A stretch of 64,000 nucleotides of DNA from a virus (Duplodnaviria > Caudoviricetes). The notes under the pieces were generated by a model. It was not told the DNA's origin, ran no database searches, and worked only from the letters and a program-made list of their open reading frames with translations. The translations under genes were made by a program, and so were the position numbers. This document shows, piece by piece, positions 19,647 through 32,177 of this stretch; the first letter of the stretch is position 1; every line of letters begins with the position of its first letter. The DNA lies in IMG/VR virus record IMGVR_UViG_3300035687_000005, positions 408-64,407 of that record; one strand, 5' to 3'.

Positions 19647-19647
19647 G

Positions 19648-21093
19648 GTGACCAGGCAGCCGAACGGCCGGCCCTCGATCTCGCAGAGCACCGACGGGTG
19701 GTGGCACTGCTACGTCACCGTCGGCCGCAAGACCGACGGCAGCCTCGACCGTAAGCACATCCGCCGCCGCACCGCCGGCGCTGTCGCGACGGCCGTCGAC
19801 GAGCTGCAGGAACGCATCAGTCGGGGGACCGGCCTGGCGCAGAAGGTCGAGACGGTCGAGCAGTGGCTGCTTCACTGGTTGGAGCATGTGGTGGAGCCGT
19901 CGAAGGCGTGGAAGACCCACGCCGGGTACCGGTCGTTGGTCACGAGGCATGTCATACCGGCGCTGGGGCAGTGGAAGCTGGACGGCACCCGGAACCGGCT
20001 CGAGCCGGAGTACGTCGAGGCGATGTACGCGAAGCTGCGCAAGCAGGGGTTGGCGCCGTCGTACGTGTTGCAGGTGCACCGGGTGCTGCGGAAGGCGCTG
20101 AAGGACGCGGTCAGGCGGGGGAAGGCGGCGCGGAACGTCTGCGACATGATCGACCCGCCGCGTGCCCGCCGGGGGCGGGTCGACGCGCACTCGCTCGTCG
20201 ACACGCAGGCGATCCTCGGTGCTGCCATGTCGGACCCGCTCGCCGGGCGTTGGCTGATCGGGATGCTGCTGGGTCCGCGGCAGGGTGAGGCGTTGAGCCT
20301 GCGGTGGCACCGCATCCACTTGGACGCCGACTCGCCGTATCTGGCGGTGGCCACGCAGCTGCAGCGGCGGACGTGGCGGCACGGGTGTAAGTCGCCGGTG
20401 GAGTGCGCGACGCCGCGGTGCCGGACGAAGGCGTGCCCGCCGCGGTACGAGCACGGCTGCGACGGGTGCGGGATGAAGCTGGCGCACTTCTGCCCGGCGC
20501 GTCGGGTGGTGGCGGGGTGCTCCCGGCACCAGCGGCCGTGTCCGCCGGTGTGCCGGCCGGGTTGCACCGACCACGCGCGTGGGTGCCCGGACCGGGTCGA
20601 CGGTGGTCTGCTCGAGGTGGACGTGAAGTCGGAGAAGGGTGAGCGGGACATCCCGTTGCCGCCGGTGGTGGAGGAGGTCCTGCGGCAGGCCCGGGAGCGT
20701 CAGATCGTGGCGTGCCGGGAGAGGGGCGTCGACTGGGACCGCGAGGGCCTGGTCTTCACGAACGAGCTGGGCGGTCCGATCGACCCGCGCGCGGATCACG
20801 CGGCGTGGGAGCGGTTGTTGGTGCGGGCGGGCGTGGCGGACACGCGGCTGCACGCGGCTCGGCATACGGCGGCGACGTTCATGGTGGCGTCGGGGACCGA
20901 CATCCGGGTGGTGCAGGAGATCCTCGGTCATTCGCACATCAACGTGACGGCCGGTTACGCGGACGCGGGCCAGGAGGTGAAGCGTCAGGCGGTGGATCGG
21001 ATCGCGAGCGCGTTGATGGATGGTCAGTTGACGGCGCTGTTGCAGGGGACTCCGAAGGGCTCTCTGCGACCTGAAAGTTCCTCGCATACGTAG
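19648..21093 (+). CDS. int: tyrosine integrase
   Basis: GPRQGEAL (R), KSEKG (K), HAARH, LGHS, GYA catalytic motifs. Confidence 0.95.
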   Translation: MTRQPNGRPSISQSTDGWWHCYVTVGRKTDGSLDRKHIRRRTAGAVATAVDELQERISRGTGLAQKVETVEQWLLHWLEHVVEPSKAWKTHAGYRSLVTRHVIPALGQWKLDGTRNRLEPEYVEAMYAKLRKQGLAPSYVLQVHRVLRKALKDAVRRGKAARNVCDMIDPPRARRGRVDAHSLVDTQAILGAAMSDPLAGRWLIGMLLGPRQGEALSLRWHRIHLDADSPYLAVATQLQRRTWRHGCKSPVECATPRCRTKACPPRYEHGCDGCGMKLAHFCPARRVVAGCSRHQRPCPPVCRPGCTDHARGCPDRVDGGLLEVDVKSEKGERDIPLPPVVEEVLRQARERQIVACRERGVDWDREGLVFTNELGGPIDPRADHAAWERLLVRAGVADTRLHAARHTAATFMVASGTDIRVVQEILGHSHINVTAGYADAGQEVKRQAVDRIASALMDGQLTALLQGTPKGSLRPESSSHT

Positions 21094-21359
21094 ATCAATA
21101 AGGGTTAGTGCAACACGCTGGTGCAACAGTGAAGGCCCGGAGATCATCTCCGGGCCTTCGTTTTCCCTGCTCATCTGTGGTGGCCAGGGGCGGGGTCGAA
21201 CCGCCGACCTTCCGATTTTCAGATCGTTGGAGTTGGATGCGTGGTAGTGCACGGGGGTGCAATGGAGATCAATACCGCCTGGTCAGACTACATGCGTGCA
21301 CCCCCACGCACCTTTGCGCACGCGTGTGCATGTGCAGATTTGCGTGATCTAGTGCAACC
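21092..21359. mobile_element. attP: core identical to the 3' half of tRNA-Phe(GAA), with arm-type repeats
   Basis: Reverse complement of 21178-21222 is CTGAAAATCGGAAGGTCGGCGGTTCGACCCCGCCCCTGGCCACCA (anticodon loop, T arm, CCA); the 5' half is absent. GTGCA(A) repeats at 21106, 21119, 21245, 21255, 21350; AGATCAATA at 21092 and 21266. Confidence 0.9.
21131..21164. terminator. intrinsic terminator between int and the att core
   Basis: GAAGGCCCGGAGA-tca-TCTCCGGGCCTTC followed by GTTTT. Confidence 0.8.
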
Positions 21360-21582
21360 CTTTTACGCACAGTCCGGAACTCCCGTTGCGGCGCCGTTGT
21401 GAGCGGTGTTGGCATGTTGGGCAAGTGACCGCCGGCCGCCGAGCCGGTCCAGGACCCAGCGGCCGGCGGCACCCACCCGGAGAACCGGGGGGACCTGTCG
21501 CCGCGCCTCGACACCTTACGTTGAGGCCGCCCGCGCCTGTCTATCCGCGATGCGCGATCTTTGATCCTGATCGCGTGGCGCG

Positions 21583-22707
21583 TCAGGCCGCTTCTTCGGC
21601 CGCCCTGATCGCCTCGACGGCCCACCGTGGTGCCCGGCCCCGCTCGGCCGCTCGGACCGCGCCGCGCAGGATCTTCGGCACCCGCGCCGACCCCACCACC
21701 GGCGCCTTCGCCATCAGATCCTCGGCGACCCGCTCGGCGTCACGCCACCCGCGCACGTTCACGAGGTCGTGCAGCAGCCACGCCCGGTACAGCGCCTGAT
21801 CCCGGCCCTGCCGGTCGGGCAGCGCGGCGACCGCCAGCTGCGACGCGCGAACCGCGCCACGCCCGTCATCCGTCGCGGCGAGCAGCCGGGCCTCGTGCAC
21901 CGCCAGCTCCGCCTCGTGCAGCCACCACGTCCACGCCGGATCGTTCGGGCCGATCCCGCCGGCGAGCTCACCACGGGCACGCTCGAGCTCGGCCAGGGCT
22001 TCGGTCCGGTCGCCGAGCTCACCGAGGGCCCGGGCGCGGCGGACGCGGAGCATCCCGACGACCCGGCCGGACTTGGGCGCTTCGGCGAGGACCCGGTCGG
22101 CGATCTGCAACCCTTCCGCACCGCGGCCGAGGTAGACGGCCTGCATGGACAGGTGGGAGAGGAGGAAGCGTTCCATGCTGCGGTCCCCGGCCAGCTGCGC
22201 GACGAGCAGGGCCTCGGTGGCGACCTGCCGCGATTCCTGCTGGTGCTCGGAGTCGTAGGCCAGCCAAGCGGCGACCTCGCCGACTTCGGCGATGGCCGCG
22301 TGTAGGTCTGATGCGGTGCCCGGTGCGGCGCCGGCGGTGGCGAGCTGGCGGTGGGCGTTGCGGAACGCGCGGGCGGCGACGGTGTGCAGGCCTTCGGAGC
22401 CGTGCATGGTGTCGAGGCTGACGAGCTGCTGCACGGTGTCGTGGAGGCGGCCGATGTCGGTGTCGTCCATAGGGCGCCGCAGGTCTGCGGGGGCGGCGGC
22501 GGTGCGCTGCCCGGCGAGCGCGGACAGTTCGCCGGCGGCGTTGAGCGCGTTGTCGATCCGGTCGGCCATCTCCGGGGTGGGGTGGACGACGCCGTTGGCG
22601 AGGCGGGAGACGTGCGCCTTGTCGGTGAACAGGGTGGCGGCGAGCGCGGCCTGGGTGATGCGGGCGAGGGCGATGCGGCGCTTCATGTCCTCTGAGAACC
22701 TGCTGAT
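21583..22707 (-). CDS. XRE-HTH regulator with helical (TPR-like) C-terminal domain
   Basis: ITQAALAATLFTDKAHVSRLANG...RIDNALNAAGEL; AGWLAYD-like motif. Start uncertain (ATC 22707 or ATG 22686). Confidence 0.75.
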   Translation of the reverse strand: MSRFSEDMKRRIALARITQAALAATLFTDKAHVSRLANGVVHPTPEMADRIDNALNAAGELSALAGQRTAAAPADLRRPMDDTDIGRLHDTVQQLVSLDTMHGSEGLHTVAARAFRNAHRQLATAGAAPGTASDLHAAIAEVGEVAAWLAYDSEHQQESRQVATEALLVAQLAGDRSMERFLLSHLSMQAVYLGRGAEGLQIADRVLAEAPKSGRVVGMLRVRRARALGELGDRTEALAELERARGELAGGIGPNDPAWTWWLHEAELAVHEARLLAATDDGRGAVRASQLAVAALPDRQGRDQALYRAWLLHDLVNVRGWRDAERVAEDLMAKAPVVGSARVPKILRGAVRAAERGRAPRWAVEAIRAAEEAA

Positions 22708-22868
22708 CGCGCACCTCCTTGCCGGGTCAACGTTGACTGCGTCGAGAGTCAACGCCGTTCTATGTCGCCTGGCCTGTGTGGCGTTCGAAGCTGGTGGTGC
22801 GGCGCGGTGCTCGGGTGCTGGACCCACCGGGGTGCCGTGCCGCTCTTCTCAGGAGGTGCGGCATGCGA

Positions 22869-23180
22869 TCACTCGGATGGTGCGGGTCTGCGGCGGCGGG
22901 CGATGAGGGCTTCGACGGCGGCGGGTTTGACGTACCGGTAACCGGATTCGGAGATGTGCCAGTCCTCGCCCTGTTGACCGTAGTGGCCTGCGTCGATACC
23001 GCGGCGGACCTTGTCGCGGCTGTCGGTGTAGCCGGCGGCGTGGAGTCGGGCGACGACGTCTTTGATCGTCCACCACGGCTTTTCCTCCACGCCGGCCTCC
23101 CTCGTCTGTAGCAACTCGTGCAACCGGGTCAATGATCGCAGGCTGCGCACGCGGAGGCGAGTGGCGGGCTGGTGCGTCAT
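22869..23180 (-). CDS. small putative DNA-binding protein divergent from the transfer operon
   Basis: WTIKDVVARL..SRDKVRRGIDAG...GYRYV resembles a wHTH; leaderless -10 TACTGT. Confidence 0.5.
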   Translation of the reverse strand: MTHQPATRLRVRSLRSLTRLHELLQTREAGVEEKPWWTIKDVVARLHAAGYTDSRDKVRRGIDAGHYGQQGEDWHISESGYRYVKPAAVEALIARRRRPAPSE

Positions 23181-23264
23181 CTCGTAACAGTAGCAAGGTT
23201 GGCAAGTGTCGCAACCTTATGAGAGAGTGGACCCATCACCCCCGCCGTCAGACTTCCCTAGGAG

Positions 23265-23777
23265 TTGATCCCCATGGCGATCGTTGAGGCCATCCACCTC
23301 CGTAAGTCGTTCACGCGCGGCATCGCCTGCGGCATTACGGGCAGCGTCCGGATCACCGAACGGCTGAGCGAGGCGACATGCCAGCGGTGTTACTACGAGG
23401 GCGACCCGGTTGCGCGGACCCGCGCCTTGATGGTCGAGGCTGCGCACGCTGAGGCGCTGGAGATGCACACCGAGATCACCGGCGAGGTTCCGGTTCGTAG
23501 GACCACCGCCGAGCGCAACCGTCAGGCGTACATCGATGCGATTGACGCGCAGATCGCCGAGCTGCTGGCCCGCCGCGCGGCCCTGGTCGGTCCACCATTC
23601 CGTGTGGGCGACCTGGTTCACCGCACGGACGACGAGGGGTTCGACCGCTGGCAGGTGTGGGTCGTGACCCGCGTGGACGCTGTCGACCCGCGCAAGGTGA
23701 GCCTCGGCCAGCGCGGTGACGACTGGCGCATGGCCATGAACGTCAGTGCCGCCACCTTGGTCGAGGCGCAGGTCTGA
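23265..23777 (+). CDS. hypothetical protein
   Basis: RBS AGGAG; ACG/CQRC motif. Confidence 0.55.
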   Translation: MIPMAIVEAIHLRKSFTRGIACGITGSVRITERLSEATCQRCYYEGDPVARTRALMVEAAHAEALEMHTEITGEVPVRRTTAERNRQAYIDAIDAQIAELLARRAALVGPPFRVGDLVHRTDDEGFDRWQVWVVTRVDAVDPRKVSLGQRGDDWRMAMNVSAATLVEAQV

Positions 23778-23852
23778 TGCGCGACGTTGGCATGACGGCG
23801 GACGCGGCGCTGCTGGCCGCGGTGGACCTCGCAGACCTGGAGGCATGACCCC

Positions 23853-24959
23853 ATGACCGCCTCTGAATTTCTCGCCGCCGCCTCCGCCTTCCTCGCCGAG
23901 CACCGCGGCGCCCTGATGGTCGGCGCCCTCGCATTCGTCGTCGTGGCGCTGCTACTGACCATCCGCCGCGCCGTGAAGGGCGGCCGGCCGGATCGCTGGG
24001 TCGACGCGATCGCGTTCCTCGGCGCCCTCAGCTTCTCCGCCGAGGGCATGTGGGAGGTCGCGACCCAGAAGCTGGGCCTGCCGGCCACGTTCGCCGCGCT
24101 GGTGTTCTTCCTGTTCGAGGCGCAGTTGGTCTCGGCGATGTTCCGGGCCAACCGGTACCAGAAGCTCAACGGCAACCCCGGTCGGCACGGTCGAGCGGTG
24201 TGGCTCATCGCCGGGGTGATGGGCCTGATCGTGGCGTTCGCGGCCGACAGCTTCGTCGAGGCGCCGCTACGTCTGGCCATCCCGCTGCTCGCCGCGTACC
24301 AGTGGTGGCTCGGTCTGACCGCCGACGGTGTCACCGAGGACAAGGGTGCGACGTCGTGGCGGTGGACGCCGCGTCGGCTGCTGCTGTGGCTCGGCGCGAT
24401 CGAGCCGGGTGAGCGCGACGTCGTGGCGGTCGACCGGGAGCGCCGCGTCGCACAGATGACCAACCTGGAGTACCGGCGCCGGCACGGTTGGGTGCGTCTG
24501 GCCGGCCGCCGCGGTGCGCGCCTGGCGCGTCTGAGTCTCGTCGCCGACGACGAGATGATCGCGGAGGTGCAGCGCCGGGTCGACCGCGCCGGCTGGTTCG
24601 ACGCGACGCACGCCGACGCCCCGGCGGAGCACGCTCGCCGGTCCAAGTCGCTAGGCGTGGCTGCGTCGGAGAAGCGGCGCCGGGTGCGTCATCACCGCCT
24701 GGTTCGGACCGTGCGGGTGACGCACCCGGCACCGAAGATCGCTCCTGCTCAGGACGTGCGTCAGGACGATCGGACGACGCAGGAGATCGACCTTGCGATC
24801 TGCGTCATGAAGGCGGGCGACCCGGACCTGGCTCAGCGACGGATCGCTCATCTGGTCGGCACGTCCGAGGCCACTGTCCGACGCGCTCTGCGTCGCAGGC
24901 AGTACACCTCGCCGCCGCCCATCAACGGCAAGATTCCCGAGCTTGAAGGAGCCACCTGA
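23853..24959 (+). CDS. Spd-like (DUF2637/SpdB2-type) membrane protein with C-terminal HTH
   Basis: Several TM helices, then LAQRRIAHLVGTSEATVRRALR HTH; architecture typical of actinomycete plasmid spread proteins. Confidence 0.65.
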   Translation: MTASEFLAAASAFLAEHRGALMVGALAFVVVALLLTIRRAVKGGRPDRWVDAIAFLGALSFSAEGMWEVATQKLGLPATFAALVFFLFEAQLVSAMFRANRYQKLNGNPGRHGRAVWLIAGVMGLIVAFAADSFVEAPLRLAIPLLAAYQWWLGLTADGVTEDKGATSWRWTPRRLLLWLGAIEPGERDVVAVDRERRVAQMTNLEYRRRHGWVRLAGRRGARLARLSLVADDEMIAEVQRRVDRAGWFDATHADAPAEHARRSKSLGVAASEKRRRVRHHRLVRTVRVTHPAPKIAPAQDVRQDDRTTQEIDLAICVMKAGDPDLAQRRIAHLVGTSEATVRRALRRRQYTSPPPINGKIPELEGAT

Positions 24960-25312
24960 TGATCCACGTCCTGTCCGTGTGGGTGCTGCTGAAGTGTGGC
25001 TGCCAGGTGCAGTGCCACGGCAACGCCCCGCGACCCACCACCTGCCCCGACCACCCGTAGATCAAGGAGAACTGAGATGGCGAAGGACAGCAAGGCGTCG
25101 AAGGAACTGCAGGGTTCCGAGGACGACATCAAGACCATCAAGACGTTCGGACTGCGCTGATGGCCATTCCGAAGAAGTGGTTCGTGCAAGAGGAGCGCGC
25201 CCGGATGGACCGCAACCAGGCGGACGCGGTCGGGGACCGGGCGGCTGCCAAGAGGCATCAGGCGGCGATGGACGAGGCACTGGCCAAGCAGGACCAGCAC
25301 AAGAAGAAGTAG
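24959..25312 (+). CDS. three tiny ORFs (24959-25060, 25077-25160, 25160-25312)
   Basis: Manual translation; RBS AAGGAG before 25077; TGATG coupling. Confidence 0.5.
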
Positions 25313-25389
25313 CTCCGCGCGGGGCGCGACCTCAGCCCTCGACAAGCACCGGTCGCGCCCCGCTCCCCCACGAAGGAGGAACACCCATC

Positions 25390-25818
25390 ATGCGCGTCCC
25401 CCTCGATCGAATCGACGACCTGCGGGCAGCGAACCGCTGGGAAACGATCTGCTCCATCGTCGGCTGGTTGTTCGCCGCGACGTTCGCCCTGATGGCGGGG
25501 TTCTACTTCGCCGGTATGGACTACGCCAAGCACATCATGGTCATCCCGTCCCTGGTGCTGTTCGCGGCCTGGGTCGGGGCCACGATCCGGGAGCGTGTAC
25601 TCCGCGACCGGGCCCATGTGCCGTCCCCGTCGGACGGTTGCTGCGACTGCGGGGTCGCCGAGTGCGACGTCATCGTCGCCCCCGACGACCGCGGTCGCGG
25701 CGAGGGCTACTGCTGGGGCTGCATCGACACCTGGCCGGCCGACGCTCCGGCGACGGTGGACGAGCTCGGGATCTACGTCTTCCCTGGTCGCGAGCGGGCC
25801 GAGGGGGTGCAGCCGTGA
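25390..25818 (+). CDS. membrane protein with Cys cluster
   Basis: 2 TM then CCDC...CWGC; RBS GGAGG. Confidence 0.55.
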   Translation: MRVPLDRIDDLRAANRWETICSIVGWLFAATFALMAGFYFAGMDYAKHIMVIPSLVLFAAWVGATIRERVLRDRAHVPSPSDGCCDCGVAECDVIVAPDDRGRGEGYCWGCIDTWPADAPATVDELGIYVFPGRERAEGVQP

Positions 25819-26003
25819 GCCGACTGCCCGCGCACGTCGCCGACCGCAGCCCCGCCGTCGTCGTCGACGGCACCGTCGTCCAGCCCGCCCCTGGATATCG
25901 CCCGGCGGTCCGCGGCGGTCCGAGCCTCGCGTTTGTCCTGGTCCTGATCCTGGTCCTGTTCGGCAGCGCCTTCGCTGTCGGCCTCGGCCTGTCTCTGCTC
26001 TGA
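25815..26003 (+). CDS. small SpdD-like membrane protein
   Basis: Pro-rich N-terminus and C-terminal TM. Confidence 0.45.
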   Translation: MSRLPAHVADRSPAVVVDGTVVQPAPGYRPAVRGGPSLAFVLVLILVLFGSAFAVGLGLSLL

Positions 26004-26012
26004 GGAGTTCCG

Positions 26013-26270
26013 TTGCCCGCCGACCGCTACCGCGTCCAGCTCTACCGCAACGGCGTCCACCGGCGCCGACAGGAGGTGCTCACGAACCTCGACCCGCACG
26101 ACGACACGATCCTGCGCGAGTGGCTGGAACGCCTCGTCAAGGCAGACCGGGGCACCCTGCGCCTGAATTTGGCAGACGGCTGGGAGCTGAAGGTCCGCAT
26201 CCCGGACGGGATCCGGGTCGTCGCGACGGCCACCGTCGACAAGTCCGGCCGCACGGTGGTGAAGCGGTGA
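26013..26270 (+). CDS. hypothetical protein
   Basis: RBS GAGGAG, TTG start. Confidence 0.55.
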   Translation: MPADRYRVQLYRNGVHRRRQEVLTNLDPHDDTILREWLERLVKADRGTLRLNLADGWELKVRIPDGIRVVATATVDKSGRTVVKR

Positions 26271-26533
26271 GCCGCCGACAGAAGGTCAGCGCCGCGCGGC
26301 GGGCGGCGTACTGGGCGGCTCGCACGAGCCCTTCTCAGCCGCCGGAGGACCGGACGGCGGCGGCCTGGGACTGGCTCAGGACGACCATCGCCGACCTGCC
26401 GTCCACCCACCAGCGTGAGGCCTGGGCAGCAGCATTCGACCAGATCAACGGGGTACGGCGGGCCATCACGGACGGTGAGTTCACACCGGGTGTTCACACC
26501 GGGTCTGCGAACCGTTCGGAGCTCCACACGTAG
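26267..26533 (+). CDS. hypothetical protein
   Basis: GTGA overlap; AAAWDWLRTTI. Confidence 0.5.
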   Translation: MSRRQKVSAARRAAYWAARTSPSQPPEDRTAAAWDWLRTTIADLPSTHQREAWAAAFDQINGVRRAITDGEFTPGVHTGSANRSELHT

Positions 26534-26606
26534 ACACGCGTGAACGCGCGCGAGGCCATCGTACACATCGGTCACTGACCGTCACAACAAGGAAGGGAGA
26601 AAGGCT

Positions 26607-27041
26607 GTGCAAGCAGGAGTTTCAGCCGGCGTCGGCATCGTGTGTCTCGTCGCCGCCGGGGTGCTCATCGTGGCCGGCCGGTGGCAGTGGCCGCGCCTGA
26701 TCGTGGCGCTCGTCATCACCGGTGTGGCCGGGCTGCTGACGTCCACGATCGGTTCGTGGATGCATGCGAGTGTGACCCGCCTGGACCGGCGGGCGTCCGC
26801 GTTCGTCGGTCAGTGGACCGGCGCCGCGGTGTCGGGGATCTTGGCGGTGGTGCTGCTCGGGTTCCTGGCGTTCTGGATCTGGCACAACCAGGTCGACGCG
26901 AAGACCATCGGGGTGGCGGCCGCCGTGCCGGTGACCGTGACGCTGATCCCGGGTCCGCTCGGCGCGTTCGCCGTCGCCGCGGTGTCCGTGGTCCCTGCGG
27001 TGCTGGGCGGCGTCGTCGCCTGGCTGTTCGGGCTCGGGTGA
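26607..27041 (+). CDS. multi-pass membrane protein (transfer/spread)
   Basis: Four to five hydrophobic helices, upstream of traB. Confidence 0.65.
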   Translation: MQAGVSAGVGIVCLVAAGVLIVAGRWQWPRLIVALVITGVAGLLTSTIGSWMHASVTRLDRRASAFVGQWTGAAVSGILAVVLLGFLAFWIWHNQVDAKTIGVAAAVPVTVTLIPGPLGAFAVAAVSVVPAVLGGVVAWLFGLG

Positions 27042-27045
27042 TCTC

Positions 27046-28047
27046 GTGGAGATCTTCGGTATCGCGATCCTCGCCGCCGGGCTGATGGGTGTCTGGCACG
27101 TCACCAGGTACGCCGTCCCGCGGACCATGCGCGCGGTCGGCAAGAAGAGGTCGGCCAGCATCCAGGCGTGGAAGGCCCAGCACCCGAACGCCCCGGCGGT
27201 CACCCGCTGGCCGGCGGCGATCGCGCGGGCCATCGCGGCGTTTCGGTGGGGGCCGCGGTTCCTCATCGAGGAGACCCGCACCGCGTGGCGGGAGGGCATG
27301 GAGCTGGGCCGTCACAAGTACGGGCAGGTCGTCACCGACCCACCCACACCTGCCGGCGCAACGGACCCGGTCGGCACCGAGTCTGCCGTCAGTGACCGGT
27401 GTGCCCGGTGCGGCCGCACCGGCAGCGATAACCACCCCCTCATACCGAGATCCGACGGCACGAGCGCGTGCGCACCCTGCCATTACAGCCGCTGCGTGAA
27501 ATGCGAGAAGAACTTCGCCGCCGATGGCGACGTCGCCTGCCCGGAGTGCCGGGCATGGCAGGACGAGCGCAACAAGCAGGCACCGCCGCTCCCCCGGCCC
27601 CGGCCGCACCTCGTATCCGTTCCCAACCCGATCCCCAACCTCATCGGCCCACCGGCCACACGTCAGAAGGAGAACACCATGACGATCCAGACCATCACCG
27701 GCGGCGAAGTCAACAGCCCCGAGCAGCTCGTCGCCGAACTGCAGGCCATCACCGCCGAGGCGGCAGCCGACCTCGAGGACGCCCGCGGCGACGCCGTCCG
27801 GGCCGAGGAGGACGCCGCCCGGATCGAGAAGATGGTCGGCTGCCTGACCAACCTGAAGCTCCCCCCGGAGGACATCAGCTCGGTGCAGGGCCTGCTCGAG
27901 CCGGCCATGGCGCGTAAGGCGGCCGCTGAGCAGCGCGCCGCGGCGGCGGAGAAGCGGGCGTCGCAGGCGCAGTCGGCGCTGGTGATGGCGCAGCGGCACG
28001 TCGAGCTGCAGGGCCAGGGCGCGGCGGGTGACTTCTACCGTTCCTGA
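27046..28047 (+). CDS. TraA-like accessory transfer protein (TM + Cys cluster + coiled coil)
   Basis: Immediately upstream of traB; internal RBS+ATG at 27679. Confidence 0.55.
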   Translation: MEIFGIAILAAGLMGVWHVTRYAVPRTMRAVGKKRSASIQAWKAQHPNAPAVTRWPAAIARAIAAFRWGPRFLIEETRTAWREGMELGRHKYGQVVTDPPTPAGATDPVGTESAVSDRCARCGRTGSDNHPLIPRSDGTSACAPCHYSRCVKCEKNFAADGDVACPECRAWQDERNKQAPPLPRPRPHLVSVPNPIPNLIGPPATRQKENTMTIQTITGGEVNSPEQLVAELQAITAEAAADLEDARGDAVRAEEDAARIEKMVGCLTNLKLPPEDISSVQGLLEPAMARKAAAEQRAAAAEKRASQAQSALVMAQRHVELQGQGAAGDFYRS

Positions 28048-28127
28048 CCGTTTCCGTGCAGGCCCCGCCGCTGGTGGGGCCTGCGCTGTGACAGGCAGGC
28101 ACAAGCCGACCAGGAAGGAGCACCGCG

Positions 28128-30125
28128 ATGGGCCTCGGCCAGTTCATCGGCGCGTTCGCCGAGGCGGCCGCCCCGGCGCCGATCGTCGTGGCGCCGCCGT
28201 CGTGGCAGCGCCGGTTGCGCCGTTGGGCGCTGCGGAAGGCGTGGCGGATGGTGTGCCGCATCTTCCGCCGCGCGCTGTCGTGGGGTCGCGCCCTCGCGCC
28301 CTGGTATCTGGCGCTGACGGTGTGGCTCGCCGCGGCGATCGCCGGGCAGGTCGAGAACGGGTGGCGCACCCTGGTCGCCCTCGCCCTGGTCGGTGCCGCG
28401 CCCATGTACCGGTGGTTGGGTCTGCCGCTGGGCCGGCTAACGAAGCGGCGGAAGGTGAAGCCGACGGAGCAGCGCTGCTGGTACGCCGGCTTCTACGTCC
28501 TGCTGTCGGTGTGGTCGGCGGTAGGTGCGGCGTGGACGGTGCTGCCACCCTGGGCCGGGGTGCTGTGGCTGGGGACGTTCGCGACGTGGGTGCGGTGGAT
28601 GTGGCACCGCCGCACCCGCCGGGTCGAGGTCCTCGTCGGTGAGATCGTCGACGACCGGCTGACCCGGTGGGCGCGGATCGCCGGCGAGGGCAAGCCGTTG
28701 AAGGGCGCCGAGCTGGAGAACCTGAACGCCCTCGAGGAGCCGCGCCGGTGGACGGCCGACGTCGTGCTGCCGTCCGGTGACCTGACGGTGGAGAACGTGC
28801 AGTCCGCGCACCGGCGGATCTGCTCGGCGTTCTCGACCCGCCGGGACAACATCATCATCGACGAGTCGCCGGGCGGGGCGGAGGACGCCGCGGTGCTGAC
28901 GGTCGTCGAGGAGAACCCGACGCACACGGCGATCGAGTACGACGAGGGCTGGCAGAAGGAGTTCGCCCCGGGCTGCTTCGGGTTCCACACCTACGGCGAC
29001 GGGTTCCGCGGCGGCCTGCGACTGTGGCAGCCGATGTCCGGTACGGCGAACACCCTGTTCTCCGGTGACACCCGGGCGGGGAAGTCCGCGGGCATGGAAG
29101 CCGGGCTGATCCAGGCGGTGGACACCGGCCTGGTGTGGCCGATGGCCGGCGACCCGCAGGGCGGCCAATCCATGCCGGCCGTCGTCGGCGAGGCGGGCTG
29201 GGCGAAGCACAAGGCCACCGATCCGGAGTCCGTTTACAACCAGCTGCTGGCGCTGAAGGAGGCGATGTACGCGCGGTCCCGGCTGCTGCAGCGGATGAAG
29301 TGGTCGGACGCTGACGGCGAGCACGTCGGCATCGGGTTCTACGACCCGCAGGTCACCGGCCTGCCGATGATCCTCTACATCTTCGACGAGGCGCACATCG
29401 CGATGAAGGACCCGGACTGGGGCCCGTTCATCGTGCTGCTCGTCGAGGAGCTCGTGCGGATGGTCGGTAAGACCGGGATCGCGTTGTGGTTGGCCACCCA
29501 GTACCCGGGGATCGAGGACCTGGGTAACAAGATGTCGATCCGGCAGAACCTGATCGCCGGGAACGTGGTGTCGTACAAGAACTCGGCGGCTGTGGCGAAG
29601 GGCATGATCCTGCCGGCGTCAATGCCGTCGCCGTACCAGATCCCGAAGGAGACGCCGGACGGCGGCCACACGAAGGGCACGGCGGTGATCTACTCGGCGG
29701 CGCCTCGGTCGTCGCGGTCGGCGTACTCCCGGTCGGTGTGGGTGAAGCGGGCGCACCACTTCGGCGCGTTGGCGGCGGCGAAGATCCCGGTGCTGGACGA
29801 GGTGACCGGCAACGCGATGTCCCGGTACATCGACCTGCCCGGGTCGGCGCCCGCGGCGAAGGCGGTGGAGCCGCAGCGGGAGCGCATCGTCGTGGCGGCC
29901 GCGCCCGCGAGGAAGGAGCGGGCGATCGACCGGATCGTGGCGTACCTCGACGGCCGGGAGGACGGCCGGGCGCACACCGGTGTGATCGCCGAGGCGCTAG
30001 ACATGCCGAAGGGCACGGTCGGGATGACGCTGCGGCGGGCGGAGGCGTCCGGTGCGGTGCACAAGGTCCGCGACGGGGTGTGGGCGCTGGGCCGGGCGAC
30101 CGCCGAGGCCGGTGTCGCCGCGTAG
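28128..30125 (+). CDS. traB: TraB-type FtsK/SpoIIIE DNA translocase
   Basis: N-terminal TMs, Walker A GDTRAGKS, Walker B YIFDEAH, LATQYP, C-terminal wHTH (HTGVIAEALDMPKGTVGMTLRR...VHKVRDGVW). Confidence 0.85.
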   Translation: MGLGQFIGAFAEAAAPAPIVVAPPSWQRRLRRWALRKAWRMVCRIFRRALSWGRALAPWYLALTVWLAAAIAGQVENGWRTLVALALVGAAPMYRWLGLPLGRLTKRRKVKPTEQRCWYAGFYVLLSVWSAVGAAWTVLPPWAGVLWLGTFATWVRWMWHRRTRRVEVLVGEIVDDRLTRWARIAGEGKPLKGAELENLNALEEPRRWTADVVLPSGDLTVENVQSAHRRICSAFSTRRDNIIIDESPGGAEDAAVLTVVEENPTHTAIEYDEGWQKEFAPGCFGFHTYGDGFRGGLRLWQPMSGTANTLFSGDTRAGKSAGMEAGLIQAVDTGLVWPMAGDPQGGQSMPAVVGEAGWAKHKATDPESVYNQLLALKEAMYARSRLLQRMKWSDADGEHVGIGFYDPQVTGLPMILYIFDEAHIAMKDPDWGPFIVLLVEELVRMVGKTGIALWLATQYPGIEDLGNKMSIRQNLIAGNVVSYKNSAAVAKGMILPASMPSPYQIPKETPDGGHTKGTAVIYSAAPRSSRSAYSRSVWVKRAHHFGALAAAKIPVLDEVTGNAMSRYIDLPGSAPAAKAVEPQRERIVVAAAPARKERAIDRIVAYLDGREDGRAHTGVIAEALDMPKGTVGMTLRRAEASGAVHKVRDGVWALGRATAEAGVAA

Positions 30126-30140
30126 GACCTCGAGCACGAC

Positions 30141-30184
30141 AAAGAGCCGCCCACCACCTCGCGAGAGGCAGTGGGCGGCTCTTT
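30141..30184. terminator. bidirectional intrinsic terminator
   Basis: AAAGAGCCGCCCAC...GTGGGCGGCTCTTT between convergent genes. Confidence 0.8.
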
Positions 30185-30258
30185 GATGTTGCGCTGACCT
30201 GCGCTTACGGTCTGTACGGCCCGCTGACGGCTTTGGATCTCGCGCCGAGGGTGCCGGG

Positions 30259-30834
30259 CTACGCCTGCCAGCGTTTGTGCTGGATGAAGTCCGTCCAATC
30301 GTCCGGATCCGTGAACCGGGTCTTCGTGTTGCCGCCGGGCGACGCCCAGTGCAGTTCCTCGTAGATCCAGTCCAAGGCGGACGAGCAGACGACGTGCGAC
30401 GGTGGCTTCCCGTCCGGGTACTCGCGGCCGCGCTCGATGAGGTCGACGACGCGGCGGTCGAGGACCTCGGCGGCGAACAGCAGGATGGCCCGCCAGTCGT
30501 ACGGGCGGGCCATCATTGCGGTGGCGATCCGGACGGCGTCGGCGCGTTCGCTGTCGACCCGGCCGGGCTGGTCGGCGTTGGTGATGGTGTCGGGGTGGTT
30601 CAGGTAGCGGGTGAGGTCGGCCCAGCCGAAGCCGCCCGGTCGACCCTCGACGCCGCGGGCGACGCCGGCGGAGTCGTAGTGGGTGAACATGGCGACGTGG
30701 TTGTGCAGCGACGGCCGGCCTTGCAGGCGGGACCGGAGGCGGATCCACCAGCCGCCCAGGTCGTGGGTGGCGGTGACGATGACGTCGCCGGGCCGCAGGA
30801 TCTGCCCGGTGGCGGCGACCTCGGCGGCGGGCAC
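30259..30834 (-). CDS. permuted papain-like (NlpC/P60, YiiX-type) enzyme
   Basis: LRPGDVI...HNHVAMF...RPYDW...VVCSSAL...PDD; His precedes Cys. Confidence 0.7.
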   Translation of the reverse strand: MPAAEVAATGQILRPGDVIVTATHDLGGWWIRLRSRLQGRPSLHNHVAMFTHYDSAGVARGVEGRPGGFGWADLTRYLNHPDTITNADQPGRVDSERADAVRIATAMMARPYDWRAILLFAAEVLDRRVVDLIERGREYPDGKPPSHVVCSSALDWIYEELHWASPGGNTKTRFTDPDDWTDFIQHKRWQA

Positions 30835-30838
30835 CCGG

Positions 30839-31198
30839 CTACACCACGTCGCCGTCGATGACCGCTGATGCCGGGACCCTGGCCACGACCTGGGTGCGGA
30901 CGAACATGGCCACGACACCGCCGACGAGGCTCATGATGACGGCCTGGTGCTCGGCGTCGATGTGCAGGCCGAAGCCGACGGCGAGCGCGAGGAGGGCCTG
31001 GGCGACGCCGAGGATTCCGGCGACGAGGCCGTCGCCGACGACGTTCGCGACGATGAGGCCGGCGGCGGCGGTCGCTGCGGCGTTGAGGAGGGCCTGCTGG
31101 CCGTCGGTGAGGTCGAGGACGAACGCGGCGAGGAACCGGACGGCGGTGGCGAAGAGGGTCAGGAAGACTGCGGGCTCCCTGCCGAAGAACTTGGGCAT
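30839..31198 (-). CDS. holin
   Basis: MPKFFGREPA...4 TM...FVRTQV, typical actinophage holin. Confidence 0.75.
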   Translation of the reverse strand: MPKFFGREPAVFLTLFATAVRFLAAFVLDLTDGQQALLNAAATAAAGLIVANVVGDGLVAGILGVAQALLALAVGFGLHIDAEHQAVIMSLVGGVVAMFVRTQVVARVPASAVIDGDVV

Positions 31199-31228
31199 GA
31201 CGACTCCCTGATCGGTGAGGATGTGCGG

Positions 31229-31537
31229 ATGGATCGGGTGGTGTTGCACCTCGAGCACGGCGTGGGCCGGGTCAAGGCGTGGCAGTGCGCGCCGCCGGAG
31301 TCGTACCGGTGCCGCACGATCTCGATCGGCACCCTGGCCGGCGGCCGGTGGTGGGCGAACCACACCGGTGTGCACGGCGGGGCGTTCCTATGCCGGGACC
31401 GGGCGCACGCGCAGGAGGTCGCCGACGGGTGGATGGACGGCGGCGAGTGGTGGGAGGTGCCGGCGGAGTTCGGCCCAGACGGTCAGCCGACGGAGCCGGG
31501 GTGGGTGCGACGCGGCGGCAGCTGGTTCCCGGCGTGA
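31229..31537 (+). CDS. hypothetical protein (moron)
   Basis: Trp-rich 102 aa. Confidence 0.5.
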   Translation: MDRVVLHLEHGVGRVKAWQCAPPESYRCRTISIGTLAGGRWWANHTGVHGGAFLCRDRAHAQEVADGWMDGGEWWEVPAEFGPDGQPTEPGWVRRGGSWFPA

Positions 31538-31608
31538 CCGATACGGTGGCTCGGATCGCTGCTCAGGAGGCCCGGCAGCCTGGCTGATCTCGGCGTAGCG
31601 TCGCCGGG

Positions 31609-31836
31609 GTGGAGGTCGAAGCGGCCATGCGGACACCCGACGGGCAGTGGCGCGTCGAGATCGTCCGGCGTGGTCGTAGCCGCTGGTATCGGGTGGTGCA
31701 CGGCGACAACGAGATCGACTGGCTGTCGATCGCCGCAGTGCAGCGGATCCTCACCGAGGCCGGGGTCGACATGGCCACGCTGATCGACGTGACTGACGAG
31801 CCGTCGGCGGACGACGGGCACCACGGCGCAGCGTGA
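31609..31836 (+). CDS. hypothetical protein (moron)
   Basis: -10-like TAGCGT just before the GTG. Confidence 0.55.
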   Translation: MEVEAAMRTPDGQWRVEIVRRGRSRWYRVVHGDNEIDWLSIAAVQRILTEAGVDMATLIDVTDEPSADDGHHGAA

Positions 31837-31934
31837 GCGTCAGCTGCCTCGAATCCCGTCCGCATCTGGTCACCCGTCCGGGGTGGGCCGTCTGCCCGGT
31901 TCCCGGCGCATCGACACCTAGCTACCTTGGCCTG

Positions 31935-32129
31935 ATGTCTCTCGTGAAAAAGATCGAGTCGGAGTTGAACAAGGTCGTCGATGCTTTGGCGGACGGCATC
32001 CCCCCGGCGGAAGGTCAGCAGCGCGGCGCCGGGTCGGGTACGCCGTCCGGGGACCGGGTTGTCCTGCCTATCGAGATGGTCGCCCGAATCGCTGCTGAGG
32101 TCGCCGAGGAGGACTTCCGGCAACGCTGA
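31935..32129 (+). CDS. hypothetical protein (moron)
   Basis: TACCTT 6 nt before the ATG. Confidence 0.45.
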   Translation: MSLVKKIESELNKVVDALADGIPPAEGQQRGAGSGTPSGDRVVLPIEMVARIAAEVAEEDFRQR

Positions 32130-32177
32130 CAGTTGCGGTGTCGAAACCCGTGCCGAGCAGGTGAGACGATGGACGGC

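What the first reader, a model, noticed from the sequence alone, without database searches (positions are those of the whole stretch)
21583..30184. Temperate phage carrying an AICE-like TraB/Spd conjugation module: phage-conjugative element hybrid
Seen: between holin and attP lies a + strand operon of Spd-like membrane proteins ending in an intact TraB-type FtsK translocase (TMs, Walker A/B, wHTH) with its own terminator, preceded by divergent regulators. It has no recognisable rep, int, xis or second att site. Known: TraB alone mediates dsDNA conjugation of Streptomyces plasmids and actinomycete integrative conjugative elements (AICEs), some of which integrate at tRNA-Phe. A conjugative plasmid-phage (pZL12) is known, so the concept has precedent, but an integrating version is unusual. 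Inference: the excised phage circle, using the phage int/xis and replicase, could spread by hyphal conjugation as well as by particles, bypassing receptor-level resistance.
Basis: partly seen in the sequence, partly recalled or inferred. Interest (0 to 1): 0.85.

Follow-up and report, generated by a model that had tools for sequence, protein, structure and literature searches.

The report
Temperate actinophage carrying TraB transfer cassette
A soil phage that integrates at a tRNA-Phe gene carries, as an optional cassette, the kind of DNA pump that Streptomyces-type plasmids use to pass double-stranded DNA between hyphae, so the phage may be able to spread without making particles.

Summary
The window is nearly all of a 64.4-kb virus record: a siphovirus with terminase, portal, HK97 capsid, tape measure, GH25 lysin, a tyrosine integrase and an attP whose 42-nt core equals the 3' half of tRNA-Phe(GAA). 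Between attP and the lysis genes, on the opposite strand, lies a translationally coupled operon of small membrane proteins. It ends in a 665-aa protein with N-terminal TM helices, an FtsK-type ATPase and a C-terminal winged helix.

This protein aligns colinearly with the pIJ101 Tra protein. Its closest cellular relative is encoded on a Micromonospora plasmid, where the neighbouring genes are shared too.

Assembly chimera is unlikely, though the support comes from what may be the same sample. One re-assembled contig links the cassette to the lysis genes.

Comparable cassettes occupy the same position in four other unrelated temperate phage genomes. One is the cultured, published ΦNon1. The closest backbone relatives lack it. 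Phage-borne TraBs fall in at least three tree positions.

"Spd-like" rests on topology and position only, no clt was found, and transfer is untested. pZL12 and ΦNon1 are precedents, so this is a new variant of a known kind. Interest 0.62.

The parts
19648..21093 (+). Tyrosine integrase, 481 aa, with a Cys-rich insert. It is the phage's own integrase and lies next to attP.
   Evidence: Pfam Phage_integrase E 4e-17; NCBIfam XerC/XerD-like.
21131..21164 (+). Terminator-like GC hairpin plus GTTTT, downstream of int.
   Evidence: Read directly from the sequence.
21181..21222 (-). attP common core: the 3' half of tRNA-Phe(GAA), from the anticodon loop to the 3' end. The identity extends by 1-6 nt toward 21175 in some genomes.
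   Evidence: Exact match in at least 120 Actinomycetota genome contigs. ARAGORN places it at the 3' end of tRNA-Phe in 6 of the 8 loci scanned. The identity stops at the anticodon loop.
21238..21346 (.). Cluster of short inverted GTGCA/TGCGCA-type repeats in the attP arm. These are candidate arm-type integrase sites (inferred).
   Evidence: the repeat finder I1-I3, I11, I12.
21583..22827 (-). NsdA-family HTH + TPR regulator, divergent from the operon.
   Evidence: NCBIfam NsdA_fam_reg E 4e-44; PHROG 10886 transcriptional regulator E 3e-27; weak HTH_3.
22869..23180 (-). 103-aa ORF, divergent from the operon. Function unknown; an Xis or regulator role is only a guess.
   Evidence: GC3 frame signal; no family in Pfam, NCBIfam, PHROGs or PADLOC.
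23265..23777 (+). 170-aa ORF, the first gene of the operon. Function unknown.
   Evidence: GC3 0.86; no significant family.
23853..24959 (+). 368-aa protein with an N-terminal membrane domain (3 TM) and a C-terminal HTH. It is the positional counterpart of the DUF2637 proteins in plasmid and phage TraB clusters.
   Evidence: Hydropathy. Weak HTH_24 hit. The Atlas gives leads to clusters in which 10-15% of members carry DUF2637, with structure TM-scores of 0.42/0.58. Homologues lie beside TraB in G371 (38%, E 2e-25), in G003 (27%) and at the end of provirus G410 (31%, E 8e-21). The DUF2637 HMM does not hit G000.
25390..25818 (+). 142-aa protein with 2 TM helices.
   Evidence: Hydropathy; GC3 0.91; RBS GAAGGAGG.
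25815..26003 (+). 62-aa ORF whose start overlaps the previous stop by 4 nt.
26013..26270 (+). 85-aa conserved cassette protein.
   Evidence: 58% identical in G001, 31% in G002, 39% in G401; also present in L011 and L017.
26267..26533 (+). 88-aa protein, translationally coupled to the previous gene.
   Evidence: phmmer against the gene at the same position of the Micromonospora zamorensis plasmid, E 1e-5, and of ΦNon1, E 1e-3, in a 17-sequence set.
26607..27041 (+). 144-aa integral membrane protein with 4 TM helices; part of the cassette core.
   Evidence: Hydropathy. 70% identical in G001 and 32-35% in G002. Present upstream of TraB in 7 of 23 metagenome loci. Matches the M. zamorensis plasmid neighbour at E 5e-6.
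27046..28047 (+). 333-aa protein with an N-terminal TM helix, a Cys-rich zinc-ribbon-like middle and a C-terminal coiled coil; part of the cassette core.
   Evidence: Sequence and hydropathy. 46% identical in G001. Matches the gene directly upstream of TraB on the M. zamorensis plasmid (33% over 146 aa, E 8e-12). Only weak zinc-ribbon hits in Pfam.
28128..30125 (+). TraB-like FtsK/HerA-type dsDNA translocase, 665 aa: TM helices, a P-loop ATPase and a C-terminal winged helix.
   Evidence: Motifs. Walker A, Walker B and the ATQ motif are invariant in 25 of 25 relatives. The profile's best PDB hit is the FtsK motor 2IUU, E 1e-5. hhalign to pIJ101 Tra gives probability 92%, E 5e-7, colinear through the wHTH. 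NCBIfam plasmid_TraB E 5e-7, far below its cut-off. 54 actinomycete plasmid records match, and none of the phage records.
30140..30185 (.). Hairpin with 21-nt arms, 90% complementary, between the convergent traB and the - strand genes. Terminator-like.
   Evidence: the repeat finder I8; sequence. The simple terminator scan did not list it.

Best explanation
Shown:
- The window is a complete temperate siphovirus with a tyrosine integrase and an attP that matches the 3' half of tRNA-Phe.
- Its genome holds an 8.6-kb accessory cassette between attP and the lysis genes, on the strand opposite to the lytic genes.
- The cassette has two divergent regulators. It also has a translationally coupled operon of small membrane proteins that ends in a TraB/Tra-type FtsK-like translocase.
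- The cassette core is an 85-88-aa protein, a 4-TM protein, a TM/zinc-ribbon/coiled-coil protein and TraB. This core is shared with plasmids of Micromonosporaceae.
- The core recurs at the same genomic position in other, otherwise unrelated temperate actinophages.
- The closest backbone relatives of this phage lack it.

Inferred:
- By analogy with pIJ101 Tra and pSVH1 TraB, membrane-anchored TraB hexamers would bind a cis site on the circular phage genome through the C-terminal winged helix. That genome could be excised or replicating.
- TraB would then pump the genome as double-stranded DNA into a neighbouring hypha and across septa, helped by the co-transcribed membrane proteins.
- The phage would thereby gain a particle-independent route of spread and lysogenisation in a mycelial host.
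For: Phage identity:
- TerL is 54% identical to that of Gordonia phage GAL1.
- Portal, HK97 capsid, tape measure, GH25 lysin and a PolA fusion are present. So are a small terminase and an integrase.
- CheckV completeness is 100.
- attP equals the 3' half of tRNA-Phe.

Translocase:
- Motifs and architecture.
- Catalytic residues are invariant in 25 of 25 relatives.
- The FtsK motor is the best PDB match to the family profile.
- The family aligns colinearly with the conjugation protein Tra of pIJ101, including the wHTH.
- plasmid_TraB is the NCBIfam family matched by the most relatives, 5 of 25, best E 1.8e-15.

Plasmid ancestry:
- tblastn hits 54 of 72,556 plasmid records, all from actinomycetes, and 0 of 50,697 phage records.
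- Four consecutive genes are colinear with the M. zamorensis plasmid.
- Streptomyces and Kitasatospora plasmids show the order DUF2637, small genes, TraB.

Not a chimera:
- One 26,637-nt re-assembled contig at depth 28.8 covers 21193-36000 without a difference.
- The contig on the other side has depth 28.7.
- The only break is inside the tRNA core, which is repeated in the metagenome.

Recurrence:
- G001 has an HK97 capsid and a serine integrase. G002 has direct terminal repeats, a tape measure and a tyrosine integrase. G003 has a tape measure and a serine integrase. All three carry the cassette.
- ΦNon1 has the same layout.
- Between G000 and G001 the cassette proteins are 46-70% identical while TerL is 26%.

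Accessory nature:
- 0 of 5 records with TerL 70-83% identical hold a TraB relative. These include a 96%-complete provirus and a record with direct terminal repeats.

Precedent (from passages seen):
[quoted passage not shown] No known defence family matched in PADLOC.
Against: - No transfer, expression or packaging data exist. No RNA run was available.
- No clt-like array of 8-bp repeats was found in or near traB or in the intergenic stretches.
- The translocase fails the curated thresholds. NF041214 gives 28.5 bits against a cut-off of 800. Pfam FtsK_SpoIIIE is not hit at E<=0.01, whereas pIJ101 Tra scores 38.8 bits.
- BLASTP of P0001 against pIJ101 Tra is not significant on its own.
- The accessory proteins match no Spd protein of pIJ101 and no Pfam family.
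- The plasmid homologues are themselves uncharacterised and annotated as hypothetical.
- The host is unknown, so a mycelial lifestyle is only suggested. The attP core fits many genera, including non-mycelial ones such as Janibacter and Terrabacter.
- The read evidence comes from what may be the sample of origin, and the re-assembled contigs do not bridge the attP core.
- No structure could be predicted because the tool was off.
Confidence: 0.5

Rival explanations
1. Intramycelial helper only. The cassette does not move the phage between individuals. It spreads replicating or newly established phage DNA across septal cross-walls inside the infected mycelium, which enlarges the infected or lysogenised compartment.
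For: Thoma et al. 2015 proposed this role for SpdB2 homologues on actinophages (passage of PMC4447253). Most of the cassette is small membrane proteins. Provirus G410 keeps a homologue of the 368-aa membrane protein without TraB, so such proteins may serve phages on their own.
Against: In pSVH1, TraB is the one protein essential for intermycelial transfer (abstract of PMC4447253). A complete TraB with a wHTH therefore argues for more than spreading. The two roles are not exclusive, and sequence cannot tell them apart.
Confidence: 0.2
2. Lysogen-benefit or exclusion module. The prophage expresses the cassette, which serves the host-prophage pair in some other way. It might block or expel incoming DNA, giving superinfection or plasmid exclusion. 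It might instead mobilise chromosomal DNA. In neither case would it move the phage itself.
For: The cassette lies between attP/int and the lysis genes. It is on the same strand as the CI-like repressor (18354-18917) and int, and opposite to the lytic genes. From my own knowledge, this is the typical position of prophage-expressed accessory genes in temperate actinophages. The cassette has its own regulators and is present or absent among relatives.
Against: No PADLOC defence family matches any of the 10 cassette proteins, apart from two chance-level hits at E>0.004. The nearest relatives are in plasmid transfer-type clusters. The wHTH and the colinearity with Tra point to sequence-directed DNA pumping.
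Confidence: 0.2
3. Inert cargo or artefact. The cassette would be a remnant of a tandem AICE or plasmid picked up by aberrant excision at tRNA-Phe, or an assembly chimera, with no present function.
For: The record is an uncultivated metagenome contig. The re-assembled contigs break at the attP core. AICEs and phages both use tRNA genes as integration sites (PMC3218068). No clt was found.
Against: All reading frames are intact and show strong GC3 bias of 0.83-0.96. The Walker motifs are invariant in 25 of 25 relatives. Synteny is kept across phages whose cassette proteins have diverged to 38-52% identity. The cassette is linked to the lysis and tail genes on one re-assembled contig, and depth is equal on both sides of attP. 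No second att core exists. Four other phage genomes have the same arrangement.
Confidence: 0.07

Closest known systems
pZL12/ΦZL12, the Streptomyces plasmid-phage (Zhong et al. 2010, J Bacteriol; primary paper not held, known here only from passages in PMC3583192, PMC4487206 and PMC5431353)
   Same: It is one element with a full phage cycle that also transfers conjugally. Transfer requires a major tra gene plus two adjacent genes (PMC3583192).
   Different: pZL12 is maintained as a plasmid with ParA/ParB (PMC4487206). The element here has an integrase and a tRNA-Phe attP. Only a ParB-domain protein was seen, and no ParA among the proteins scanned. Sequence kinship to the pZL12 Tra was not tested. 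pZL12 was not fetched. The first 50 kb of its relative pSLE1 show no annotated Tra, and pSLE1 is not among the 30 plasmid hits listed.
ΦNon1 of Nonomuraea gerenzanensis ATCC 39727 (NZ_LT559120.1; D'Argenio et al. 2016, PMC5431353, passages seen)
   Same: It has the same overall layout: structural genes on one strand, then an integrase region, then a DUF2637 gene, small TM genes and a 654-aa TraB-like gene. That last block lies on the other strand and converges on the lysis genes. It is both circular and integrated in a tRNA gene.
   Different: Its TraB is only 28% identical and sits in another part of the tree. It integrates at tRNA-Val. Its backbone is unrelated, with TerL 28% identical. The paper's main text never mentions TraB, FtsK or a translocase; its figures and supplements were not seen.
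Tra of pIJ101 and TraB of pSVH1 with their Spd proteins (Streptomyces conjugative plasmids)
   Same: The translocase has the same order of a membrane anchor, an FtsK-type ATPase and a C-terminal wHTH, and aligns colinearly with pIJ101 Tra. The neighbouring small membrane genes form a translationally coupled operon (operon coupling of spd genes per PMC4447253).
   Different: Identity is about 23%. The Pfam FtsK_SpoIIIE threshold is not reached (against 38.8 bits for pIJ101 Tra). There is no GntR-type TraR/KorA; an NsdA-family HTH/TPR regulator takes that place. No similarity to SpdA, SpdB or KilB was found, and no clt.
[quoted passage not shown]
   Same: [quoted passage not shown]
   Different: AICEs are 9-24 kb, carry RepSA, RepAM or Prim-Pol replication genes and have no virion genes. 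This element is 64 kb with a complete virion and lysis gene set. It gave no RepAM or Prim-Pol hit.
TraB-like cluster of the Micromonospora zamorensis plasmid NZ_CP107937.1, and the near-identical contig G401:C4
   Same: It is the closest cellular relative. TraB is 32% identical over 91% of its length. The three genes upstream are homologous and in the same order. It is among the nearest cellular relatives of the phage clade in the tree, the relation to contig G371 being unresolved.
   Different: It lies on a 203-kb plasmid next to parA, with no phage genes within the 22 kb inspected. All its genes are annotated as hypothetical, so its function is equally untested.
SpdB2 homologues of phages φC31 and VWB
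   Same: They are an earlier case of plasmid spread-type membrane proteins encoded by temperate actinophages (PMC4447253).
   Different: As cited there, those phages carry only an SpdB2-like gene and no TraB. The 368-aa protein of this window found nothing in the phage collection at E<=1e-3.

Membership tests
TraB/Tra-type FtsK-like conjugative dsDNA translocase of actinomycete plasmids and AICEs | FtsK/HerA-superfamily P-loop ATPase with Walker A and Walker B | tested here: met
   GDTRAGKS, ILYIFDEAH and ATQYP are present. G313, G318, K319, D420, E421 and Q458 are invariant in 25 of 25 relatives. The profile's best PDB match is the FtsK motor 2IUU, E 1.1e-5, over positions 310-462.
TraB/Tra-type FtsK-like conjugative dsDNA translocase of actinomycete plasmids and AICEs | N-terminal membrane anchor | tested here: met
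   Kyte-Doolittle windows give helices at 55-73 and 121-139, and the region between is hydrophobic. This is a heuristic; no dedicated TM predictor was available.
TraB/Tra-type FtsK-like conjugative dsDNA translocase of actinomycete plasmids and AICEs | C-terminal winged-helix DNA-binding domain (the clt-recognition domain) | tested here: met
   Pfam MarR_2 E 9.7e-4 at 602-649, below the gathering score. Small wHTH chains of the PDB match at E 2e-4. hhalign places the region on the C-terminal wHTH of pIJ101 Tra, which itself hits MarR_2.
TraB/Tra-type FtsK-like conjugative dsDNA translocase of actinomycete plasmids and AICEs | Score above the curated family models (NCBIfam NF041214 plasmid_TraB; Pfam PF01580 FtsK_SpoIIIE) | tested here: not met
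   NF041214 scores 28.5 bits against a cut-off of 800. PF01580 is not hit at E<=0.01. NF041214 is narrow, however: pIJ101 Tra does not hit it at all. The plasmid TraB-likes hit PF01580 only weakly or not at all.
TraB/Tra-type FtsK-like conjugative dsDNA translocase of actinomycete plasmids and AICEs | Cis-acting clt locus with short repeats recognised by the wHTH | tested here: inconclusive
   No cluster of 3 or more exact 8- or 9-mers was found in or next to traB. No repeat array was found in 20900-34700 or in the intergenic stretches. clt sites differ between plasmids, so absence of a recognisable array is weak evidence.
TraB/Tra-type FtsK-like conjugative dsDNA translocase of actinomycete plasmids and AICEs | Mediates contact-dependent dsDNA transfer | not testable with these tools
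   This needs mating assays.
AICE (actinomycete integrative and conjugative element) | An Int + Rep (RepSA, RepAM or Prim-Pol) + Tra module set in a 9-24 kb element bounded by att sites, without virion genes | tested here: not met
   Int and Tra are present. No RepAM or Prim-Pol hit was found in the record (the RepAM control found nothing anywhere). RepSA was not searched. The element is 64 kb with terminase, portal, capsid, tail and lysin genes. It has one attP and no second core.
Phage-plasmid (pZL12 type) | Phage gene set plus plasmid maintenance (partition and replication) in place of integration | tested here: not met
   An integrase and a tRNA-Phe attP are present. Only a ParB-domain protein was seen (14862-15509). 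No ParA was seen among the roughly 50 proteins scanned. Episomal maintenance cannot be excluded.
Spd (spread) proteins of Streptomyces plasmids | Sequence kinship to SpdA, SpdB or SpdB2 | tested here: not met
   phmmer against pIJ101 SpdA, SpdB, orf66 and KilB gave nothing below E 0.03 in a 17-sequence set. There was no Pfam or NCBIfam family. pSVH1 SpdB2 was not available for comparison.
Spd (spread) proteins of Streptomyces plasmids | Small membrane proteins in a translationally coupled operon next to traB | tested here: met
   Four operon products have TM segments. Gene junctions are -4, +9, -4 and +4 nt.
DUF2637 (PF10935) membrane proteins that accompany TraB on actinomycete plasmids | HMM match above the gathering score | tested here: not met
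   G000 has no hit. G001 scores 42.8 bits, ΦNon1 24.7 bits and G002 15.9 bits. For the 368-aa protein there are only Atlas leads, to clusters in which 10-15% of members carry DUF2637.

The most novel reading that the evidence does not exclude
Temperate phages of mycelial actinomycetes repeatedly capture plasmid TraB cassettes. They use them as a second, virion-free route of transmission. The excised or replicating phage circle is pumped as dsDNA into neighbouring hyphae and through septa. One element is then both a virus and a conjugative integrative element, able to lysogenise receptor-resistant hosts. At least three independent phage-TraB associations, and a 27-row clade in which every row of known context is a phage, suggest selection for this dual lifestyle.
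Probability: 0.4. Interest if true: 0.82.

Novelty: new variant of a known kind. Interest (0 to 1): 0.62.

Why it matters
If the cassette works as its plasmid relatives do, a temperate phage can spread by cell contact as well as by particles. That would blur the line between viruses and integrative conjugative elements in actinomycetes, a group in which conjugation needs only one motor protein.

It would also change how phage host range, receptor-based resistance and lysogeny spread are reasoned about in soil mycelial bacteria. It would explain why spread-type genes turn up on actinophages.

The hypothesis is directly testable. A cultured carrier, ΦNon1 in Nonomuraea gerenzanensis, already exists and is known to be both circular and integrated.

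The four full-text searches made here turned up no description of TraB cassettes on integrating phages. A recent review of plasmid mobility mentions TraB only in its reference list.

Tried and rejected
Domain calls rest on sequence profiles alone.

Scans of viral contigs with P0004 and P0013 found nothing.

Genome collection. The first genome-contig scan with the TraB alignment found no relative.

clt search. Exact k-mer clusters and repeat scans gave no convincing array.

RNA families. Rfam gave no tRNA or other family at attP and nothing at gathering score in the window. ARAGORN found no tRNA in the window, because only half a tRNA is present.

Terminator scan. The simple scan did not list the traB hairpin.

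Defence. PADLOC gave no family.

Other cassette proteins. The 368-aa protein found nothing in the phage or plasmid collections at E<=1e-3. The Atlas search for the 333-aa protein gave only unnamed clusters under 0.9.

Expression. No RNA holder was listed for the stretch, so nothing can be said about expression.

Read joints. Table 5 of read laying lists 12 'joints', all with only 20-22 letters on the shorter side and mostly at low depth. I set them aside as matches from other organisms.

Genes re-read. My GC3-based gene caller mis-called + strand ORFs at 50891-52699. The real gene there is a 927-aa - strand ORF.

Papers and supplements. The pZL12 primary paper is not held. Supplements and figures were not seen, in particular Fig. 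1D of PMC5431353, which may label plasmid genes of ΦNon1.

Complex prediction.

Full report
WHAT THE WINDOW IS

The window is bases 408-64407 of a single 64,407-bp virus record. IMG/VR classes the record as linear, and CheckV puts its completeness at 100. It has about 69% G+C and no terminal repeat.

The - strand carries a full siphovirus set:
- small terminase, 63489-63944 (Terminase_7, E 8e-29);
- large terminase, 61852-63492 (54% identical to Gordonia phage GAL1, about 50% to cluster-F-like mycobacteriophages);
- SPP1-type portal, HK97 capsid, tape measure (39275-42583) and a GH25 lysin (35452-36456);
- a left arm of early genes with a 1548-aa PolA fusion and a ParB-domain protein.

The middle of the record, on the + strand, holds a Cro/CI-type HTH protein (18354-18917), a 2-TM protein and a 481-aa tyrosine integrase (19648-21093).

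attP

Just downstream of int, after a terminator-like hairpin, window 21181-21222 reads on the - strand as the 3' half of a tRNA with anticodon GAA. Of the 80 titles listed, 18 are Micromonospora and 6 Actinoplanes. Terrabacter, Janibacter, Kineosporia, Catenulispora and others also appear.

ARAGORN places the match at the 3' end of tRNA-Phe(GAA) in 6 of the 8 loci scanned. The other two have two copies of the core but no complete tRNA in the stretch held.

The identity with host genes stops at the anticodon loop in 79 of 83 matches. That is the usual structure of a tRNA-targeting attP. The host genus cannot be told from it.

THE CASSETTE (21583-30185)

Two - strand genes face away from the operon. 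One is an NsdA-family HTH/TPR regulator (E 4e-44; it also matches a phage regulator family, PHROG 10886). The other is a 103-aa ORF with no family.

The + strand operon has nine ORFs with strong third-position G+C bias, junctions of -4, +9, -4 and +4 nt, and good ribosome-binding sites. Four products have predicted membrane helices.

The last gene encodes 665 aa with hydrophobic N-terminal helices, Walker A, Walker B, an ATQYP motif and a C-terminal winged helix. A hairpin with 21-nt arms follows it.

There is no second att core. No RepAM or Prim-Pol replication gene was found, though the RepAM control found nothing anywhere.

IS THE TRANSLOCASE OF THE TraB KIND?

On its own the protein reaches no Pfam FtsK_SpoIIIE hit. 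It gets only 28.5 bits from NCBIfam plasmid_TraB, whose cut-off is 800. Three further lines of evidence bear on it.

First, relatives. The word-indexed search found 25 relatives, nearly all from metagenomes. The Walker and ATQ residues are invariant in all 25.

Second, profile matches. A profile of the 25:
- has the FtsK motor of Pseudomonas (2IUU) as its best PDB match, at E 1e-5, plus small winged-helix chains at its C-terminus;
- aligns colinearly, at probability 92% and E 5e-7, with the conjugation protein Tra of pIJ101, from the ATPase through the C-terminal winged helix;
- finds 1569, 769 and 290 representative proteins at E<=1e-3, 1e-10 and 1e-30.

Third, named families. plasmid_TraB is the NCBIfam family matched by the most members, 5 of 25.

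The curated models are narrow. pIJ101 Tra itself does not hit NF041214. Plasmid TraB-likes hit PF01580 only weakly or not at all.

I therefore file the protein as working like, and architecturally equal to, a Tra/TraB translocase. It is not a member of the curated TraB equivalog.

PLASMID KINSHIP

tblastn finds the protein in 54 of 72,556 plasmid records, all from actinomycetes (46 of them Streptomyces). It finds it in none of 50,697 phage records.

The best plasmid, from Micromonospora zamorensis (32% identity over 91% of the protein), has four consecutive genes in the same order. These are a 92-aa protein, a multi-TM protein, a 364-aa protein and TraB, each detectably homologous to its counterpart.

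Streptomyces and Kitasatospora plasmids show the order DUF2637 protein, small genes, TraB-like.

In 401 sampled Micromonosporaceae genomes, 35 have a match at E<=1e-15 (one of them, G221, is unpublished and not used). The two strongest, G401 and G371, keep the neighbouring genes but have no phage structural genes in the 40-67 kb inspected.

None of the accessory proteins resembles SpdA, SpdB or KilB of pIJ101 or any Pfam family. 'Spd-like' is thus a statement about topology, operon structure and position.

NOT A CHIMERA

The contigs that Logan built from the one run holding this DNA were laid on 17000-36000. That run is a soil metagenome and may be the sample of origin, so it is not independent data. 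A 21,613-nt contig (depth 28.7) covers the int side up to 21206.

The only break is inside the tRNA core. That core is shared with other organisms' tRNA genes in the same metagenome.

That second contig's length shows that it ends exactly at base 1 of the record. This fits a physical genome end, though it does not prove packaging.

RECURRENCE IN OTHER PHAGES

Three more virus records carry a relative of the cassette.

| Record | Size, ends and completeness | Phage genes seen | Integrase | TraB identity to the window |
|---|---|---|---|---|
| G001 | 53 kb, 97% complete | HK97 capsid | serine | 52% |
| G002 | 95 kb, direct terminal repeats, 100% | tape measure | tyrosine | 38% |
| G003 | 67.7 kb, 83% | tape measure | serine | 23% |

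In each record the cassette lies between the integrase and the lysis/tail genes.

Between G000 and G001 the cassette proteins are 46-70% identical, while TerL is 26%. The cassette is therefore a mosaic module that moves between backbones.

Of 23 metagenome loci, 7 show the 4-TM gene and 7 the 333-aa gene upstream of TraB. Most of the rest are contigs too short to tell.

A cultured example exists: plasmid III of Nonomuraea gerenzanensis, published as ΦNon1. The passages seen describe it as a 'plasmid-phage element' reminiscent of pZL12. They report it both as a circle and integrated at tRNA-Val (PMC5431353). It has terS, terL, portal, protease and capsid on one strand. On the other strand, converging on the lysis genes, it has a DUF2637 gene, small TM genes and a 654-aa TraB-like gene. 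That paper's main text does not contain the words TraB, FtsK or translocase.

The DUF2637 model hits the cassettes of G001 (42.8 bits), ΦNon1 (24.7) and G002 (15.9, below the cut-off), but not G000.

ACCESSORY NATURE

Fifty-one virus loci encode a TerL relative. I tested five of these 51 records, with TerL 70-83% identical. None holds a TraB relative (0 of 5). Three of the five are fragments. One is a 96%-complete provirus (G410) and one has direct terminal repeats (G409).

G410 shares terS, terL and tail genes with the window. It keeps only a homologue of the 368-aa membrane protein, at its very end.

TREE

The tree was a quick IQ-TREE search with LG+G4 and SH-aLRT support only, on 78 rows. 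An earlier run with the mixture model timed out.

Rows left out were two duplicates, the unpublished L174, and all but every fourth of the full-length representatives (30 kept).

- G000, G001 and G002 fall in a 27-row clade (support 93). It otherwise holds only metagenome rows.
- Its nearest neighbours are the M. zamorensis plasmid with G401, and G371 (30 rows together, 97*).
- G003 groups with three chromosomal Micromonosporaceae rows (97*, on a long branch).
- ΦNon1 groups with three representative rows (99*).

Phage-borne TraBs thus occupy at least three places among plasmid and chromosomal ones. pIJ101 Tra is the most distant row, and its join with the single FtsK outgroup is a long-branch meeting.

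MECHANISM

The established model comes from passages of PMC4447253. In it, TraB hexamers form a membrane channel, their C-termini recognise clt, and the ATPase pumps unprocessed dsDNA. Spd proteins form a complex with TraB for spreading across septa.

Applied here, a circular phage genome would be the substrate. The phage's own integrase would establish it in the recipient.

The anatomy, the kinship and the recurrence are shown. The transfer itself, its substrate, its timing and the host's mycelial nature are inferred. No clt-like array was found.

COMPARISON AND NOVELTY

There are four precedents:
- pZL12, whose conjugal transfer needs a tra gene and two neighbours (PMC3583192);
- ΦNon1;
- SpdB2 homologues on φC31 and VWB (PMC4447253);
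- FtsK-like genes noted in lytic Streptomyces phages and ascribed to replication or development (PMC13587820 and PMC11536984). These are a different kind, since the phage collection gave no match.

Four full-text searches and a recent review of plasmid mobility gave no description of TraB cassettes as a recurrent feature of integrating temperate phages. I therefore rate the finding as a new variant of a known kind and of real but moderate surprise.

VERDICT

| Item | Rating |
|---|---|
| Observation | confirmed |
| Best explanation (virion-independent dsDNA spread) | 0.5 |
| Interest | 0.62 |

Noticed in passing
window 6480-6633: A 12-nt motif of the form AACGGGGGGAAC occurs twice in tandem and twice more inverted 130 nt away, inside the 1548-aa PolA-fusion ORF. 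Most 9-mers within it occur nowhere else in the window.
   Followed up: no
window 49633-52416 (-): A 927-aa ORF is very rich in Ala and Thr and has many short repeats, in the most G+C-rich part of the window (0.73-0.755). It lies in the tail region and is probably a fibre-like protein. My GC3 gene caller had wrongly called + strand ORFs here.
   Followed up: partly
window 55305-56516 (-) and 46597-49044 (-): Two proteins of the structural arm carry PhoD-like phosphatase domains (E 7e-10 and 1.5e-6). The second also ends in DUF6093. A phosphatase-like domain is unusual for virion-arm genes.
   Followed up: no
window 32939-34554: A 1.6-kb stretch with the lowest G+C of the window (0.64-0.655) lies between the cassette side and the lysis genes. 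It has no convincing ORF and no Rfam match. A 32-nt imperfect inverted repeat sits at 32930-33032, next to the start of the 176-aa gene 32408-32938 (-).
   Followed up: partly
window 14862-15509 (-) and 11576-12460 (-): The early arm encodes a ParB N-terminal plus ParB-HTH protein and an AAA_33 kinase-like domain fused to an XRE HTH. No ParA was seen among the proteins scanned. The ParB might bear on episomal maintenance.
   Followed up: no
G000 base 1 (407 nt left of the window): The re-assembled 21,613-nt contig of run X1 ends exactly where the virus record begins, and terS starts 56 nt from the other end. This fits real (cos-type) genome ends in the sample.
   Followed up: partly
G410:C1:815-1483 (L252): A 96%-complete provirus has TerL 83% identical to the window's and lacks TraB. 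It keeps a homologue (31%, E 8e-21) of the 368-aa membrane/HTH protein at its extreme end. So this gene can travel with phages on its own.
   Followed up: partly
G002:C1:16493-26666 (L035, L036): In the 95-kb record with direct terminal repeats, the + strand block continues for about 10 kb beyond TraB with some 30 small genes of unknown function. A conserved 131-aa gene (4653-5048, -) recurs near TraB in metagenome loci L011, L023 and L027.
   Followed up: no
L199 (Micromonospora sp. NBC_00821 plasmid, NZ_CP108881.1): A TraB-like 'ATP-binding protein' lies directly upstream of a gene annotated as DNA translocase FtsK, on a plasmid that PLSDB types as MOBP-mobilisable. Two kinds of transfer function appear to sit on one replicon.
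   Followed up: no
L064, L071, L092 (genome contigs): The tRNA-Phe core occurs twice within 2-4 kb in three genomes. This is as expected for small elements integrated at the same site.
   Followed up: no
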